Assembly (NCBI RefSeq): GCF_024521635.1 | Contig: NW_026250430.1 | Span: 1 to 64,000 of the forward strand | Direction: 5' to 3' | Origin: Tricharina praecox | Lineage: Eukaryota | Length of the DNA: 64,000 bases | In this document: in pieces, positions 14,235 through 23,457 of the stretch | Layout: every line of letters begins with the position of its first letter | How positions within the stretch are numbered: position 1 is the stretch's first letter | Position numbers and translations under genes: made by a program | Notes under the pieces: model-generated | Told to the model about the DNA's origin: nothing | What the model saw: only the letters and a program-made list of their open reading frames with translations | Databases searched by the model: none

Positions 14235-15667
14235 CTTGTCTTTTGTTGATCTCATTTTTTTTCGCCTCGCTCCTTCGGCTTCTGTGCTGCAGGAGAACGC
14301 TATGAATACCCCCCTGGACCTGACCCAGCTCCGTTGAGCAATATCTACCCACGTCTGTCTTGGCTATGTAGGTACATATATGAGATATCTTTTAGCTGAA
14401 CAGTGACGCAACAGATCGAGTTCGAGTTCGATCGAGGAAATGGAGTTCGAAATTCGAATTCGGTCGGGGAACACACTGGTCTGCAAGAACTGCTGTCGAC
14501 AGAAGGTGGGAGGCACATCTGTCTGTCCCACTTTTTGGTGCTTTATTAGTCTACCGTACCCCATCGGCAGGTGCGGTAGGGTAGCCTTCCTCATAGAGTC
14601 TCAGGCATGGATTTTCATGATTGCATCTGATGCACTATGTTCTCACCGGCTTCTGAGTCGAGTTGTTCTAAGCAAGCAAGCAACGTAAGCAAGTAAGCAA
14701 GTACTTCCGGTGGGCCTCGGCCAGCGGCCAGCATTCATCCCTAGTGGAACCGGTAACTATGTAGGTGCAGTTGCATGGTACGTAGTGGGCGTGGTGGTGG
14801 TGGTGGATCCCAGCTCCAACTTCCGCGGGAAGAGCCCGCAGGCCGTAGCTCACCGTCATTATATATGCAGTAATTCGGAGTATATATCCGCCCCATATGA
14901 CGGGAAAGCGAGGAATACCCAATATGGGTAGTATGGATAGGATTGCTTTTTTTTGTGAGTGCGGATGAAAACGAGTGATAGGTTCTCTGTCACAATCATT
15001 TATACTCACCTGCCTGCGTACCGGGCCCCCAAGCAAACCGGACTTCCCCGTTTGACTCACTCGGCGGACTCTACCCTGGTACCGTGGCACGCAGAAAACA
15101 ACTGCCGTACTAGCTACGACACGAGCACGTTCAAGACATACTGGACTGAACGGGCTCACGTATTGCGGGCTCGACTGGCCACTACTTCTGCAAGTAAACT
15201 TGACCGGTGGCTCACGCAATGACAACCACCATTCGAGAGAACTACGTAGTGATACTACATCACGCCTACTTCACTCGGTTTGAAAACACACAAAAACATA
15301 TATTGCCCATCTGAACCGTAATTGTATTGCCAGTGAGAGGTATTAAGGCCAGCAGAAAGATTCGGCTGCCGCCAAATGTACAGAAGAACAAACAAAAAAG
15401 AAGAAAAAAAGAAAAAAACCCAGCATTTCCCAACCCAGAATTTCTCGACCCAGAACTTCCCGACTCAACAATGCCGCGTCCACGTCGTAGCGTAGGTTCC
15501 AACAGGTACCGCAAGCTAACACGAGGTGCGGATCGGAAAACTCGAAGAATGCTGAAACAAGCACGTCATGGGGAGTCGTCCGTTCGTCCGGCGGGAATCG
15601 AAGTATCGAGTAACGTTGAACTCGGGGGAAAAGAAAAATCGAGTAACGGTGAACTCGTATAAAAGAA

Positions 15668-17145
15668 TCAAAGGGCCATAATGCCCATAGGACCGCTCAG
15701 CACGAGATGTTGCTCGTAAAAGCAAAGTAGCTTTTGCGGCGCCTTCTCGTGAAGAACAGTCGCTAGGACATGACCCTTCTTGCCGTTCGACCAAATGAGG
15801 TATGCATGCAATGCATAATCCTCATCGGAGCAAGACACAGTCTCAATGCTCGCTATTTCGGTCTCCCAGTTGGCGCCGACGGGGGGCGTCCAGAGTAGGG
15901 CTTCTTCAGGCTGCTGCTCGGTGGGGCGTCCACCAAGGGCACCGAAGTAGCCCTCCAACAGCTTGCCGAAGTTTTCCCTGACACGGTTAGCTGTTGAAAG
16001 GTGGTAGGCGGAGGGTTGGGCTTACTCGGCTGTGGCCTCCTGCTCCCAGGTCCACTGATCCTTCTCGGGTTGATCCAACCACTCGACATGCACCCAGAGC
16101 CCGCCGCCGATGAAATCGTGGCCACGGATGACCCTGATCAACGAATAGTCGCGACTCCTCGACGACTTTCGGGCCACAGGGTACGTCTTGTTGACGAGCT
16201 CGACTTCCGCAGCAGCCTGAAGCTCGGGCTCCTTGAAGGAAGCACGCTGTACGTCGCGAACTTCCTCCGGCTGCATGAGCGTGGCGATCTGGGATCTCAG
16301 GCCCAGCGCTACGATCTTATGTCGACCTCCAATCGACTGCAAGAACGCATCGTAGACCTCCCCGAAATCGGCCCTATTGCCGTTAGTCGCTGGTACCTAT
16401 TACTGGTGATGGGAAGAGATGAACTTACACGATCCTTGCTTCCGTCTCCCACGTCATGTCGACGTGGTCCCTCCACTCGACCAGCAAGAACAACCCCTTG
16501 CCTTCGCCGTCCGGAATCAACCACGGAAACCGGATGGAAACCGCGGTTTTTCCGACGGTCAAGAAGCGATCCGCATCGCGCGGATGGCCCCAGTTGACCG
16601 CGACGTCGGCAAGGTTGGCGTAATCGCCGTTGTTCGCCAGGTAGGCGGCGAGAAGGTGGGCGCTCGTTGCGCTGCGGGTCGTGAGCGATTCGGAAAGCAA
16701 AACAAAAGGAAAAACAAAAGGAAAAACAAAAGGATAAAACAAAAAAAAAACGATGAGAGGGGGATGATGGTGAGGAGGTGGAAGAAGATGAGGAGGAAGA
16801 AGAAGATAAGGAGGGAAGAAAAGGGTAGGAATATATAGGGAGGTGCACTTACGCTAGCGTCTCTTCAGTTTCCCAAGTCCACGACGACCTCGCCGGGTAA
16901 CCGTGCCATTCCACAAGTAGCCAGAGAATGTGGCGCTGCTCTCCCTCGACGAAAAGATGACTATGGATTGCAACAGCATCTCCACGAGGACGCTGAAAAT
17001 GGTCGGGACGAGATGCGTTGCGTAGAGAGCGACCGACTGGTGCGCGCGCAACTGGAGGTTTTTCTGGAACCGGAGACTTTTCTGCCTGCGGATATTTCGC
17101 ACGGCGCACGGGAGGAGGACGTGGTACTTTTCCTTTCGGAGGCAT
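15668..17145 (-). CDS. HP1/Swi6-like protein with three chromodomains and a C-terminal chromo shadow domain (4 exons, 397 aa)
   Basis: Exons 17145-16853, 16671-16429, 16373-16026 and 15977-15668 sum to 1194 nt in frame. Three VEW...TWExE chromodomain motifs. The C-terminal WTPP..NWE..I..IET..AYLIWSNGKK..KAPQKLLCFYEQHL matches the fungal chromo shadow pattern. Confidence 0.88.
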
Positions 17146-18230
17146 CGTAGAGACTCTGATGCTTCTGTTTCTCGGTGCTGCGTGGCTGAGTCTTTTTTCG
17201 CTGGTGGGGTCGTTTTTGTTGCTGTTGCTGTTGCTGTGGCGTGTGAGGTGTGCGGAGATGGTCACGTGGGTGGCGCAACTCACAACTTTATGGTGGATTT
17301 AAGGTTTGCGGTAGTGGGCTTGGCACACTAGTTTTTCACATTTGTGGCTTCCGCAAGATTCCGCCGGCGTGATGCGACACAACCACAACGGACTAGATGT
17401 ATTGCGAAGCGCGGTTCTGTCCTAGAATTTTAATATTATTACATACTGTTCAAATATCCGATTTTCTATGTATAATTCCTTGTCATGAGTAGTATTTTTA
17501 CATGCAGTTGTCGGCCAAACCGCTACCACAGGACAGCGGGTGGTCGGCGACAACGAAGCTGTTTGATGAATTATTATCACTCGAAGTACATCGCGAAGCT
17601 GTTTCATGACTTATTATCACTCGCAGTATATCGCTATCCAGGCGTAGTGGCTTATATACATATTCAGCATCATGTTTACGAAACGACACTTGAAGCGGCC
17701 GACGAGCTGCCCGGTCGCCGATGTTTGTGGTGAAAATTTCTAACAATGGGTGCAGTTGCGAGTGCGGCTTATCGGACAGATGTTGACAGGCTCGTGCAGA
17801 CGCCAAAGGCAGGCGGAAGACGAAGTGCCAGCGACCGACGCCTGCAACAACGTAGCTGCTTATGACAGAGCGGCGGTAGCATAACAGTAGAATCAGAAGA
17901 CGTGCCGGTTGTATGAATCCTTCCAAGGATGACTCCTGAGTCGACGGCCCAAACTCTCCCCCATGCTTTTGCGAGGGCTCTTTCGCCATTACCTCTCCAG
18001 GCCGGAAAGCGGCGGGTTGAGAGAAGAAGAACACATAAGGAGATAGTAGTTGATAGTCTATTCTGAGATGATAATCTGGAGAGAAGAAGAAGAAGGAAAC
18101 CTAGCTCGACCCTGCTCAAGTCCAACAGCCTCGACAGGCGTTCCCAGCAAACGCCTCGTACCCACAATCGGACCACTCCTTGATCTCCCCCGGTACCAAC
18201 GCGTCATCCGATATCAAAGCAGGAACGGAT

Positions 18231-20720: not shown

Positions 20721-21407
20721 CTACAACTTGCTATCTCTCTTGACAAACAAACTTTCCGCCTCCGCCAAAAGATTTCCGTTCCCATCCCTCATCTCACCGA
20801 ACAAGAACCGTTTCCGTCGCTCACTCTTCACCACCCTCGCCGTACAACACACGACCCCAGGACTATTCACGGGCGCCTTATACGTAACCTTCAACCACGC
20901 AGTAAGACACGGCACCACCGCGGCCTCGGTGAACGCATCGTCGAACAGGGTGGCGACCGTTCCTCCGTGCAGTATCCCATGGTGTCCGTTCCCGCCATGT
21001 CCCAGGGCGACCAGCGTGATTGCCTCGAGGCTCTCCGTGTTCGGGATCGGCCGGCGAAGAGAGAGGTACCCGCGAACGGCGTCGCAGGCGCGGAGTGAGG
21101 AGGACCACAGAGTGTCTTCGTGAAGGATCGTGGGGAGTGGGCGGCCGCAAGTGAAGATTGTTGTGCCGGGGGTGTTGATTATGGCGGCGCACCAGGGGAT
21201 CGAGGTGAAGATGGGGAGCTCGTCGGGGATTGTGATGCCGGATGATGAGCCGCTGGTGCGAGGCGGGGGCACGGATGATGCTTGATGTTGGGACTGCAGC
21301 ATTCTGCCGGCAGTGGAAGTGGTGTTGGATGCGGTGACAGTTTCGATGCCAAAGATGTTGGTATTTATGATCCCATTCATTCCCACCACTTCCGTTGACG
21401 TGAGCAT
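20721..21407 (-). CDS. PaaI-like / hotdog-fold acyl-CoA thioesterase
   Basis: NGHHGILHGGTVATLFDD catalytic motif, TAWLKVTYKAPV strand, and C-terminal LLAEAESLFV. Start is uncertain (21407 or 21302). Confidence 0.9.
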   Translation of the reverse strand: MLTSTEVVGMNGIINTNIFGIETVTASNTTSTAGRMLQSQHQASSVPPPRTSGSSSGITIPDELPIFTSIPWCAAIINTPGTTIFTCGRPLPTILHEDTLWSSSLRACDAVRGYLSLRRPIPNTESLEAITLVALGHGGNGHHGILHGGTVATLFDDAFTEAAVVPCLTAWLKVTYKAPVNSPGVVCCTARVVKSERRKRFLFGEMRDGNGNLLAEAESLFVKRDSKL

Positions 21408-23457
21408 GTTTATCCGCTGAATACCTAGATTGAAAGTGGACAGCAACCCGATCGACACCCTACCACTGTTGCAGTGCGCGGTGCGCGGACCTCGGTGATT
21501 CGGTGGGGTGTAAATAGCCGAGTTCGCGGGTACGCGGGTACGCACAGCAAGGGTTCTGCGACGATCTTCACGCCGATGGACATGCATGTGACATGGTTCG
21601 GCCCGCAAAATGGGTTCCCTGGGTCCGGTTGTGGTAGACAGCCATCAAACCGAAAGGAAAATCAACGTGCGGGTCCCGCGGAAAGTGGGATGACCACCGG
21701 AGAGTCTCGGGGAGGAAATGTCGCTCGATGGAGTGGGCGGATGTGGAGGCATATTAAGCCTCGCCGCCGTTAAGCATGTGAAAAGAACATTCCCTGAGCA
21801 ACATTAATTACGTCCTTGCTCGTGGGATCGTGTAGAGACTGGTACGGGGAAACTAGGTATGGCTCACCTGGAATAGATCTCCCGGTCTGCAGGAAGAGGG
21901 TTCCCTGATAATCCGATACCGTGGATACAATTCATGACAGACACAGTAATTTCCCGGCGTAACCCTGGCACCCTGCAGACGTACGACATTACCCCGAAAT
22001 TCAGGACCGAAATATCTTCCTCGGCTGCTGAGTCAACTCGACATGCCTTCTACCAGGGTTGTTTTCGTGAATCGAATGACTCGGTCATTCAAACAACCTG
22101 TAAGTAACCTCGTTCCCCGTCGGTAGGTCCATCAGACATGTGCAGAGGACGTGATGCATGGCATCTACGTCGATGTGGTAGAACGACCATGTACTTGGAA
22201 AGTAGTACCTGGGGACTCACTCCTTGACGTGAGTCGTAGTTGAAATCCCTTCCGGTCGCCGGAGCTTCCAACGGCTTCAAACTCGCTGACTTCCCCGACT
22301 ACCAGTGAAGACCCGGAAAGGTGGGTACGATACTCGATTCGAGACGCAGGATTCCCCCGTCATGAAGATAAGGTGATGCTAGATGTCGAGTAACGCCGGA
22401 ACCATAGCTGAAGTTGTTGTGCCCGTCTCGATGGCTGTGGGCCGATTGCCGCGTTTGTCGGAAGTAAGGATGGTTCAGGTACGCCGATAGGAAAAACTGG
22501 GAATGGCCGAGCACTAATCATAAGTAAGTCGGGCGGACGTCGACGGAGTGACTGGAATATTCGAGTAATCCGGTCAGTCAAGCCGTCCCTGATGTCACTG
22601 CGAAGTAGGCTTACCTCTGGCAACCCTCAGAGATCGCGGGCGAGCCCAGCGGACCGATACTCAACGAAATCGTGGCCATATGATAACCGTATGTGATACC
22701 TGGCGGAATATAGCTTGCCCTTCCTCCGACATCAATGCAGTAGCCACCGACACGGGATCGTCGTATTTTCAGCTGTCCAGCACCGCCCTCAAAACCTAAG
22801 AAGTGTGACGAGATGTATCCGGGAGTCGATGACGGGCGGAAGCTCTGAACGTCTCGGAGGAAGGATCGACTGTTGAAGGACTCTCGTTTCGTGTGGCGGT
22901 ATGGCGGCGGTGGGTGAGGAAATGTGCGTGAGTAGAGATAGATAGGATGTGACGAGACAGTAGAGCTGTTGATCTGAGGAACATGGTCGTTCCATCATAG
23001 GGGTTCGATTGGCCGTGCCGATTCGCTTCGCTACTCAATAAGCGAGGTGACAACAATGGTCGTCATTGTTGCCACTCGCTCACTCGACGTTGTTGGAACG
23101 AACTAGCACCTCCGCTTCGTAGTAGGAGAATACTCTCCCAGCATTGACCCACACCACCGCAGCCAATACACCACCCTCCACACACGTCCCCCGCATCCCA
23201 TTTTGTGCCGCCCCACATCAATCATCATTTCTTTTTCATCGTTCAAGATACAATCCGTTCCCATTTCGCGCCACCCCCACATCGATCACCACTTCTTTCT
23301 CATCATTCAATACACAATCCGTTAACGTCATCGAATCGTTTCGATATCGAGGCTGCAACCCTTTCACGAATTTCCATACTACGCCGTCTCTTCGCCCGCT
23401 AGAACGCACCACACATCGCTCGAACCCGCTCCGGAACGAATACACCACGACCGGACA

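What the first reader, a model, noticed from the sequence alone, without database searches (positions are those of the whole stretch)
15668..17145. HP1/Swi6-like protein with three chromodomains built by tandem exon duplication
Seen: three chromodomain cores (LLVEWHGYPARSSWTWETEETLA, LLVEWRDHVDMTWETEARIV, VHVEWLDQPEKDQWTWEQEATAE) precede one chromo shadow domain. Each core is cut by a phase-2 GTAAG intron at the same codon, seven residues after the W of TWE. Known: HP1/Swi6/Chp2 proteins normally have one chromodomain plus one shadow domain. Inference: symmetrical exon duplication produced a multivalent HP1 paralogue that could bridge several nucleosomes or act on the canonical HP1 through shadow-domain dimerisation.
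Basis: partly seen in the sequence, partly recalled or inferred. Interest (0 to 1): 0.78.

Follow-up and report, generated by a model that had tools for sequence, protein, structure and literature searches.

The report
Fungal HP1-like gene with three chromodomains
This fungal gene encodes a heterochromatin-protein-1 relative that carries three chromodomains instead of one before its dimerising shadow domain; the copies arose by internal duplication around an old intron, the public annotation misses two of them, and they have lost most of the residues that normally grip methylated histone.

Summary
A minus-strand, four-exon gene (17145..15668) gives a 397-aa protein with three HP1-type chromodomains (CD) and one chromo shadow domain (CSD). 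Each CD is cut by a phase-2 GTAAG intron at the 7th codon after the W of TWE. Spliced RNA contigs confirm introns 2 and 3 exactly. Exon 1 and intron 1 have no RNA cover and rest on inference.

A profile built from 36 canonical fungal HP1 CDs scores the three cores 34.1, 17.1 and 30.7 bits, against at most 7.1 in 2000 shuffles. hhalign gives 96-98%.

The same phase-2 intron sits at that place in 12 of 13 canonical fungal HP1 genes examined. It is therefore ancestral and was copied with each duplication.

None of 41 nearest CSD proteins and none of 26 metagenomic HP1 loci has more than one CD. The public Tricharina praecox model (186 aa) is exactly residues 212-397, so it misses CD1 and CD2.

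The aromatic cage is incomplete in all three CDs, so multivalent H3K9me reading is doubtful. The CSD is intact and is predicted to homodimerise.

Verdict: a new variant of a known kind, of moderate interest.

The parts
16853..17145 (-). Exon 1. It holds the start codon, a strongly basic Pro-rich N-terminal tail (aa 1-55, pI 11.9) and the beta-sheet part of CD1.
   Evidence: The exon-1 piece gives a partial Pfam Chromo match (18.4 bits). No RNA contig covers it. GC3 is only 0.43.
16672..16852 (-). Intron 1 (181 nt, GTAAGT..CAG, phase 2). This intron is predicted only.
   Evidence: Among 8 open GT..AG combinations it gives the best CD-profile score (39.3 bits). An acceptor 9 nt further in (16663) scores 36.5. 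The same method ranks the RNA-proven introns 2 and 3 first.
16429..16671 (-). Exon 2 (243 nt, phase 2 at both ends). It holds the CD1 helix, a linker and the CD2 beta-sheet.
   Evidence: RNA contigs cover it: X1 at 16434-16628, X2 at 16428-16507, X3 at 16441-16621. GC3 is 0.81.
16374..16428 (-). Intron 2 (55 nt, GTAAGT..TAG, CTAAC branch site, phase 2).
   Evidence: Skipped exactly by X2 contig record 6.
16026..16373 (-). Exon 3 (348 nt, phase 2 at both ends). It holds the CD2 helix, a 55-aa basic linker and the CD3 beta-sheet. It also contains Met212 (16274-16276), where the public 186-aa model starts.
15978..16025 (-). Intron 3 (48 nt, GTAAGC..CAG, CTAAC branch site, phase 2).
   Evidence: Skipped exactly by X1 record 2 and X2 record 6. 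It is also spliced out in the public protein P0152.
15668..15977 (-). Exon 4. It holds the CD3 helix, a 14-aa acidic linker, the chromo shadow domain and the stop codon.
   Evidence: Pfam Chromo_shadow at 44.7 bits. RNA contigs cover it.
16617..16980 (-). CD1 (aa ~56-116, spans intron 1).
   Evidence: 34.1 bits against the canonical CD profile. hhalign 97.5%. It keeps W80 and Y83 of the cage.
16316..16544 (-). CD2 (aa ~141-198, spans intron 2). This is the most divergent of the three.
   Evidence: 17.1 bits, matching profile positions 19-63 only. hhalign 96.2%. Only W164 of the cage is kept.
15920..16150 (-). CD3 (aa ~254-314, spans intron 3).
   Evidence: 30.7 bits. hhalign 97.7%. AlphaFold2 gives a beta-beta-beta-alpha fold at pLDDT about 94. 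Foldseek matches Rhino and MPP8 chromodomains at TM 0.81.
15692..15877 (-). Chromo shadow domain (aa ~329-390).
   Evidence: 70.8 bits against the fungal CSD profile. pLDDT about 95. Swi6 CSD 1e0b_B matches at TM 0.91, rmsd 0.8. A homodimer is predicted.

Best explanation
This is a real, transcribed, HP1-derived gene. Its protein carries three tandem HP1-type chromodomains followed, after a very short acidic linker, by an intact chromo shadow domain.

Origin. The extra chromodomains arose by two rounds of intragenic tandem duplication of a segment that included the ancestral phase-2 intron of fungal HP1 genes. That is why every copy is split at the same codon, and why the two internal exons are symmetrical.

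Divergence. The copies are old or fast-evolving: they are 37-38% identical to each other, share no DNA similarity, and sit on long tree branches.

Histone reading. None of the three keeps the full three-aromatic cage. They are therefore unlikely to be three equivalent H3K9me3 readers (inferred).

Most likely function (inferred, not shown). The protein dimerises through its CSD, with itself or with a canonical HP1. It then presents a strongly basic N-terminal tail plus cage-poor chromo folds as nucleic-acid or protein-binding modules. In this reading it is an adaptor or modulator of HP1 complexes rather than a simple multivalent methyl-histone clamp.

Annotation. The public 186-aa annotation of this gene is truncated at an internal Met and hides two of the three chromodomains.
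For: - Gene model, phases and junction codons.
- Introns 2 and 3 are spliced exactly as predicted in RNA contigs of two runs with 0 mismatches. Exon 2 is also present in a soil RNA library.
- Three CD matches to a profile of 36 canonical fungal HP1 CDs (34.1, 17.1 and 30.7 bits), against at most 7.1 bits in 2000 shuffles and no other CD match with E below 1 in the window.
- hhalign gives 97.5, 96.2 and 97.7%, colinear across all three junctions.
- A profile of the three beta-sheet cores hits nine PDB chains at E below 1. Eight are named chromodomain proteins and one is a 'Putative uncharacterized protein'. The best is 'Heterochromatin protein one' 9baq_B at E 0.0044.
- CSD: Pfam 44.7 bits and 70.8 bits against the fungal CSD profile.
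- An AlphaFold2 model of residues 212-397 gives CD3 and the CSD at pLDDT about 94-95. They match Swi6, Chp2 and HP1 shadow domains and Rhino and MPP8 chromodomains.
- The intron is ancestral. Of 13 canonical HP1 genes on metagenome contigs, 12 have a phase-2 intron there; in 11 of these the split codon is the 7th residue after the W.
- The three CDs form one group in a 39-row tree (support 94/83; 93% of bootstrap trees), with CD2 and CD3 together at 99/73.
- The same scoring method that ranks the RNA-proven introns 2 and 3 first also ranks the predicted intron 1 first.
- Exon 1 starts Met-Pro-Pro. Of 37 canonical HP1s, 19 start Met-Pro.
- There is no in-frame ATG upstream of exon 2 other than that of exon 1.
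- The public protein P0152 equals residues 212-397 exactly.
- Cage columns are aromatic in 34/36, 36/36 and 36/36 canonical CDs. CD1 has no aligned aromatic at the first position (ungapped reading: Gly55), then W, Y. CD2 has none, then W, then a gap. CD3 has S256 at the first position by ungapped alignment (Y255 is one position off), then W, Q.
- CSD homodimer model: ipSAE 0.55, best of 3 controls 0.00. Runs agree in at least 41% of contacts and the partner pLDDT is at least 78. The mark was reached by 21 of 30 proteins solved as pairs of one chain and by 0 of 23 solved as single chains. On eukaryotes it was reached by 17 of 29, but by only 1 of 7 with no older solved relative. CSD dimers are solved, so the pass may be from memory.
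Against: - No RNA contig covers exon 1 or intron 1.
- Exon 1 has an atypical GC3 of 0.43, against 0.63-0.81 in exons 2-4.
- Pfam's own Chromo model stays below its gathering score for the complete CD3 (17.7 vs 25.1) and for the exon-1 piece (18.4). It finds nothing in exons 2 or 3 alone.
- CD2 matches only profile positions 19-63, and its first strand is not aligned.
- The grouping of the three CDs could be helped by long-branch attraction (branches 1.2-1.5 against a median of 0.37). The support is not 'starred'.
- The structure model was guided by an alignment of canonical HP1s, which may impose the fold.
- No orthologue was found in any search, so conservation and selection could not be measured.
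- No function was tested. The adaptor/modulator reading is inference from lost cage residues and an intact CSD.
Confidence: 0.7

Rival explanations
1. The protein is a multivalent H3K9me reader. Its three functional chromodomains (six per CSD dimer) bind several methylated H3 tails at once and bridge or compact nucleosomes.
For: Three chromo-type domains and a dimerising CSD are present. CD1 keeps the W-x-G-Y part of the cage. CD3 has a Tyr one position off the first cage column, which a small shift could bring in.
Against: Canonical fungal HP1 CDs are aromatic at the three cage columns in 34/36, 36/36 and 36/36 rows. This protein keeps 2, 1 and 1 of them. That loss of any one cage residue abolishes methyl-lysine binding in HP1 is recalled knowledge, not tested here. 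All three CD branches are long.
Confidence: 0.2
2. The public 186-aa model is the true product (one CD plus the CSD, starting at Met212). The upstream chromo-like exons would then be an untranslated leader or decaying relics of an old duplication.
For: The public annotation P0152 has 186 aa. Exon 1 has no RNA cover and a low GC3 of 0.43.
Against: Exon 2 is spliced in frame to exon 3 in RNA. The frame stays open for all 211 codons upstream of Met212 across three exons. CD1 is the best-scoring of the three (34.1 bits), and exon 2 has the highest GC3 (0.81). After divergence deep enough to erase all DNA similarity, unselected copies would be expected to carry stops or frameshifts.
Confidence: 0.1
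3. The gene is not an extra paralogue. It is the species' only HP1 orthologue, remodelled by CD triplication.
For: None of the 20 named nearest CSD relatives comes from the same species or class. The window holds no second chromo or shadow sequence.
Against: The incomplete cage and long branches fit a relaxed duplicate better than the sole H3K9me reader. The CSD is only 40-50% identical to its best relatives. No genome was available to look for a canonical copy, so this is open rather than contradicted.
Confidence: 0.25

Closest known systems
Canonical fungal HP1 (Neurospora-type 'Heterochromatin protein one', PDB 9baq/9baz; S. pombe Swi6 and Chp2)
   Same: The CSD matches by sequence and fold: 9baq_B at E 3.4e-14 and Swi6 CSD at TM 0.91. 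The CDs match the HP1-type CD profile, including the Gly-Gly-Arg tail after the helix in CD2 and CD3. The same phase-2 intron lies in the CD. The predicted CSD dimer interface lies along the C-terminal helix.
   Different: There are three CDs instead of one. The aromatic cage is incomplete in all three. The N-terminal tail is basic rather than acidic. The linker from the last CD to the CSD is 14 aa with no Lys or Arg, in place of a long basic hinge. The intron at CD profile position ~17, seen in the canonical genes, is absent here.
Tetrahymena Pdd1p (and Hpl4)
   Same: These are HP1-like proteins with more than one chromodomain. Pdd1p has 2 chromodomains and a chromoshadow domain (passage seen in PMC4695338). 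Hpl4 has a second CD (passage seen in PMC5762428).
   Different: They are ciliate proteins with two CDs, not three. No relation by descent to this fungal gene was tested. Here the three CDs group with each other among fungal HP1 CDs, which points to an independent duplication.
Zymoseptoria tritici Cbx2
   Same: It is a fungal-specific protein with two chromodomains (passages seen in bioRxiv 10.1101/2022.09.21.508279).
   Different: In the passages seen, Cbx2's architecture is described by two CDs and it binds H3K9me3 in vitro. No shadow domain is mentioned for it. The present protein has a CSD and cage-poor CDs.
CHD remodellers and cpSRP43 (tandem or triple chromodomains)
   Same: They carry several chromo folds in one chain. 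CHD1, CHD4 and cpSRP43 chains appear among the weaker Foldseek hits. cpSRP43 was the only paper found for 'three chromodomains' plus 'chromo shadow' (search listing only).
   Different: They have no CSD and different partner domains (ATPase, ankyrin). They are not HP1-type by sequence.

Membership tests
HP1 family (CD - hinge - CSD) | C-terminal chromo shadow domain (Pfam PF01393) | tested here: met
   44.7 bits against a cut-off of 22.4. 70.8 bits against the fungal CSD profile. Fold matches the Swi6 CSD at TM 0.91.
HP1 family (CD - hinge - CSD) | Chromodomain passing Pfam PF00385's own gathering score | tested here: not met
   The complete CD3 scores 17.7 bits and the exon-1 part of CD1 scores 18.4 bits, against a cut-off of 25.1.
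HP1 family (CD - hinge - CSD) | Chromodomain homologous to HP1-type CDs (profile and fold) | tested here: met
   34.1, 17.1 and 30.7 bits against a profile of 36 fungal HP1 CDs, with shuffles at most 7.1. hhalign 96-98%. The CD3 model has a chromo fold.
HP1 family (CD - hinge - CSD) | Three-aromatic methyl-lysine cage in the CD | tested here: not met
   By alignment, CD1 keeps 2 of 3 positions, CD2 keeps 1 of 3 and CD3 keeps 1 of 3 (with a Tyr one position off). Canonical rows are aromatic in 34/36, 36/36 and 36/36.
HP1 family (CD - hinge - CSD) | Single CD separated from the CSD by a long basic hinge | tested here: not met
   There are three CDs. The last linker is 14 aa with 0 Lys/Arg. The basic stretches lie instead in the N-terminal tail (pI 11.9) and in linker 2 (pI 9.5).
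HP1 family (CD - hinge - CSD) | CSD homodimerisation through the C-terminal helix | tested here: met
   In silico only. ipSAE 0.55 against a best control of 0.00, with symmetric contacts at P0152 residues 164-175. The pass may be from memory of solved CSD dimers.
Fungal (Pezizomycotina-type) HP1 genes | Phase-2 intron in the CD, split codon the 7th residue after the W of T-W-E | tested here: met
   Present in all three CDs here. Of 13 canonical loci, 12 have a phase-2 intron there, and 11 of those at the identical codon.
Ciliate multi-CD HP1-like proteins (Pdd1p type) | Common descent of the extra chromodomain | not tested
   No ciliate sequence was fetched. The three CDs group with each other among fungal HP1 CDs, which suggests an independent origin.

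The most novel reading that the evidence does not exclude
A filamentous fungus has turned HP1 into a hexavalent scaffold: three chromo folds per chain and two chains per CSD dimer. It did so by iterating a duplication around one ancestral intron. The cage-poor chromodomains would have acquired a new ligand (unmodified or differently modified histone tails, RNA, or a partner protein). The result would be a previously unseen class of heterochromatin organiser or HP1 antagonist. Because the public gene model for this gene is truncated, the architecture may be under-reported in other fungal annotations too.
Probability: 0.15. Interest if true: 0.7.

Novelty: new variant of a known kind. Interest (0 to 1): 0.45.

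Why it matters
- HP1 proteins are defined by one reader domain plus one dimerising domain, and valency is central to current models of heterochromatin compaction. A natural 3-CD + CSD form is a ready-made test of what added chromo folds do.
- It is a clean textbook case of domain gain by duplication that carries a conserved phase-2 intron along. The ancestral intron is documented here in canonical genes.
- It corrects a public annotation from 186 aa to 397 aa. Homology-seeded gene models can hide repeated domains, so counts of architectures taken from annotated proteomes may be too low.

Tried and rejected
- Word-index protein searches with exon 3 ('longer'; 'near') and with exon 4 ('longer') found nothing except the window's own ORF (P0151).
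- The exhaustive phmmer search with exon 4 found only a 96-aa fragment of the same gene at 99% identity, then ordinary HP1s at 50% identity or less. No orthologue was found, so no conservation or dN/dS test was possible.
- A metagenome scan with exon 4 alone found nothing. Alignment A2 was too diverse for a scan, so a smaller alignment, A3, was used instead.
- No whole genome is held. The search for a separate canonical HP1 in the same organism, and for copies in sister genomes, could not be run.
- RNA contigs give no cover of exon 1, intron 1 or the 5' leader. This is no evidence either way.
- blastn between the four exons found no meaningful DNA similarity (best E 0.010, out of register). 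The duplication breakpoints, and the choice between intron-to-intron and exon-breakpoint duplication, could not be resolved.
- The ESM Atlas gave only generic Chromo/Chromo_shadow clusters, all below the 0.9 level.
- Pfam on 15 long ORFs of the window found one family, a 4HBT thioesterase. This gives no useful context.
- Literature searches: 'three chromodomains' + 'chromo shadow'; 'two chromodomains' + 'chromoshadow domain' + HP1; HP1 + 'exon duplication' + chromodomain (0 papers); four phrases for multiple or triple chromodomains; and the species name. The listings showed no natural fungal HP1 with several CDs plus a CSD.
- The full 397-aa spliced protein could not be given to Pfam, to structure prediction or to the large protein searches. 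CD1 and CD2 therefore have no structure model.
Full report
WHAT IS THERE

The finding lies on the minus strand. Reading the sequence and splicing by coordinates gives four exons: 17145-16853, 16671-16429, 16373-16026 and 15977-15668. Together they make 1194 nt, which translates to 397 aa with one terminal stop.

The three introns are 181, 55 and 48 nt. All begin GTAAG, end AG and are phase 2. Introns 2 and 3 have CTAAC branch sites. The motif T-W-E starts at residues 90, 171 and 287, and the split codons are residues 98, 179 and 295.

IS IT SPLICED THAT WAY?

Contigs of two runs (labelled 'RNA?', a guess by the tool) carry the spliced form with no mismatch. X2 record 6 runs 15759-15976 | 16025-16372 | 16428-16507. 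X1 record 2 runs 15864-15976 | 16025-16259. With the stated one-base ambiguity, these remove exactly 15978-16025 and 16374-16428.

Exon 2 is further covered by X1 (16434-16628) and by a soil RNA-library contig, X3 (16441-16621). Exon 1, intron 1 and the 5' leader are not covered by any contig. That is no evidence either way.

The exon 1 - exon 2 join rests on five points:
- A scoring test in which every open GT..AG pair is spliced and scored with a chromodomain profile. It ranks the RNA-proven introns 2 and 3 first, and it also ranks 16852..16672 first for intron 1 (39.3 bits). The only close alternative is an acceptor 9 nt further in, at 36.5 bits.
- The join gives exact colinearity with the canonical domain.
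- There is no in-frame ATG upstream of exon 2 other than that of exon 1.
- Exon 1 starts Met-Pro-Pro, and 19 of 37 canonical fungal HP1s start Met-Pro.
- The frame is unbroken across 211 codons upstream of Met212.

Against this, exon 1 has GC3 of 0.43, while exons 2-4 have 0.81, 0.75 and 0.63.

ARE THESE CHROMODOMAINS?

Pfam on single exons finds Chromo_shadow in exon 4 (44.7 bits, cut-off 22.4). It finds a partial Chromo match in exon 1 (18.4 bits, cut-off 25.1) and nothing in exons 2 or 3 alone.

The spliced protein could not be handed to Pfam. I therefore built profiles in the script box from the nearest relatives found by an exhaustive phmmer search with exon 4: 36 CDs and 26 CSDs, with coordinates taken. 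The CD profile finds three domains in the spliced model:
- aa 60-113, 34.1 bits
- aa 157-198, 17.1 bits (profile positions 19-63 only)
- aa 260-314, 30.7 bits

The CSD profile finds aa 330-388 at 70.8 bits, and the three cores score below 0 against it.

Controls: 2000 shuffles of the protein reach at most 7.1 bits. Among 1980 six-frame segments of the whole window, the only CD matches with E below 1 are three ORFs of this gene. hhalign gives 97.5, 96.2 and 97.7%.

A profile of only the three beta-sheet cores (alignment A1) finds nine PDB chains at E below 1. Eight are named chromodomain proteins and one is a 'Putative uncharacterized protein'. The best is 'Heterochromatin protein one' 9baq_B at E 0.0044.

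CD2 and CD3 also keep the Gly-Gly-Arg tail that follows the helix in fungal HP1 CDs.

THE PUBLIC ANNOTATION

The 90%-identity cluster of the top hit holds P0152. This is a 186-aa 'hypothetical protein' of Tricharina praecox (XP_051336145.1). It is letter for letter residues 212-397 of my model. The public model therefore starts at an internal Met in exon 3. It contains CD3 and the CSD and misses CD1 and CD2.

Pfam on P0152 gives Chromo_shadow at 43.7 bits. Chromo reaches only 17.7 bits, below its gathering score.

AlphaFold2 on P0152, run with an alignment of 37 canonical HP1s (A2), gives a mean pLDDT of 81.3. It shows a beta-beta-beta-alpha domain at pLDDT about 94 and a shadow domain at about 95.

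Foldseek against the PDB returns, among others:
- Swi6 CSD (1e0b_B, TM 0.91, rmsd 0.8)
- Chp2 CSD
- the HP1 chains of 9baq
- Rhino (4quf_D, TM 0.81) and MPP8 (3r93_A, TM 0.81) chromodomains

The alignment may have helped to impose these folds. CD1 and CD2 have no structure model.

ORIGIN

A scan of metagenome contigs with a 10-row HP1 alignment (A3) returned 26 HP1 loci, about 18 distinct by score pattern. Six-frame scans show one CD and one CSD in every locus, so 0 of 26 has more than one CD. L017 and L018 have an isolated 11.4-bit partial hit 3 kb downstream.

In the genomic loci the CD is in three pieces, with breaks near profile positions 17 and 44. I spliced 13 of these loci with the same scoring method. 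Twelve have a phase-2 intron after the T-W-E strand. In 11 of the 12 the split codon is the 7th residue after the W. In L026 it is the 6th, and L005 gave no candidate.

The intron that cuts all three cores here is therefore the ancestral intron of fungal HP1 genes. Each duplication carried a copy of it. The other canonical intron, near position 17, is absent from all three copies here.

In a tree of 39 CDs the three copies form one group (94/83; 93% of bootstrap trees), with CD2 and CD3 together at 99/73. Their branches are long (1.2-1.5 against a median of 0.37), so long-branch attraction cannot be excluded.

The copies are 37-38% identical to each other, and no DNA similarity remains between the exons. 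It cannot be decided whether the duplications broke in introns (true exon duplication) or in exons.

HOW UNUSUAL IS IT?

I scanned 43 of the 150 listed hits with Pfam (those of about 195 aa or more, plus P0008). Of these, 41 carry Chromo_shadow and none has more than one Chromo stretch: 38 have one and 3 have none. The other two, P0095 and P0109, are false positives.

A crude motif count over all 150 hits found one protein with two matches (P0039). Pfam shows one Chromo in it.

Known multi-CD HP1-like proteins exist in ciliates. Pdd1p has 2 CDs and a CSD (passage in PMC4695338). Hpl4 has a second CD (passage in PMC5762428). Z. tritici Cbx2 has two CDs (passages in 10.1101/2022.09.21.508279).

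The searches listed no natural fungal HP1 with several CDs plus a CSD. The public model of this very gene hides two CDs, so annotated proteomes may under-report such forms.

WHAT IT MAY DO

In 36 canonical CDs the three cage columns are aromatic in 34, 36 and 36 rows. In this protein:
- CD1 has no aligned aromatic at the first position, then W80 and Y83.
- CD2 keeps only W164.
- CD3 keeps W277, has Gln at the third position, and has a Tyr one residue off the first position.

That all three aromatics are needed for methyl-lysine binding is recalled knowledge of HP1 and was not tested here.

Other features differ from canonical HP1 as well. The N-terminal 55 residues are very basic (pI 11.9), where canonical HP1s are acidic. 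The CD3-CSD linker is 14 aa with no Lys or Arg, where canonical HP1s have a long basic hinge.

The CSD is well kept. Two copies of it (P0152 residues 108-186) are predicted to pair. The ipSAE is 0.55 against a best control of 0.00. Runs agree in at least 41% of contacts, and the partner pLDDT is at least 78. The mark was reached by 21 of 30 proteins solved as pairs of one chain and by 0 of 23 solved as single chains. On eukaryotes it was reached by 17 of 29, but by only 1 of 7 without an older solved relative. The symmetric contacts lie along residues 164-175. CSD dimers are solved, so this pass may be from memory.

My reading is that this is an HP1-derived, CSD-dimerising protein whose three chromo folds are no longer standard H3K9me readers. 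It more likely acts as an adaptor or modulator of HP1 assemblies than as a six-fold methyl-histone clamp. This functional part is inference.

Whether a canonical HP1 exists beside it could not be tested, because no genome is held.

VERDICT

The duplication origin is supported and is explained by an ancestral intron. The functional interpretation is only partly supported. This is a new variant of a known kind and of moderate interest. Its immediate practical result is a corrected gene model.

Noticed in passing
window 16690-16760 (inside intron 1) and 17206-17247 (5' leader): Intron 1 holds about three copies of a 12-nt pyrimidine-rich unit. The leader holds a CAG/CAA-type run. The read-laying tool skipped 17206-17247 as a repeat, and a high-depth contig (X1 record 4, depth 188) matched only 21-24 nt inside intron 1. 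These are low-complexity matches, not expression.
   Followed up: no
P0015 (296 aa, Mariannaea sp.): This HP1 relative has one Chromo and two Chromo_shadow stretches. It looks like a duplicated shadow domain rather than a duplicated chromodomain. Internal domain duplication in fungal HP1s may therefore not be unique to this gene.
   Followed up: no
loci L005, L006, L010-L026: Canonical fungal HP1 genes on metagenome contigs have a second conserved break in the CD near profile position 17, and often one or two introns in the CSD. None of these is present in the gene studied here.
   Followed up: partly
window 626-63408, 15 long ORFs: Only 1 of the 15 long ORFs tested (eight of 250+ aa window-wide, seven shorter ones near the gene) has a Pfam match: a 4HBT thioesterase at 20721-21644 on the minus strand. 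The region seems poor in recognisable conserved genes, or its genes are intron-rich.
   Followed up: no
L017 and L018, 8245-8286: An isolated partial chromo-like match (11.4 bits, profile positions 29-43) lies about 3 kb downstream of a canonical HP1 gene. It probably belongs to another gene or to a retroelement.
   Followed up: no
window 15500-15667: The RNA contig X1 record 1 continues past the stop codon to at least 15500 and runs off the laid stretch. The 3' UTR is therefore at least about 170 nt long.
   Followed up: no
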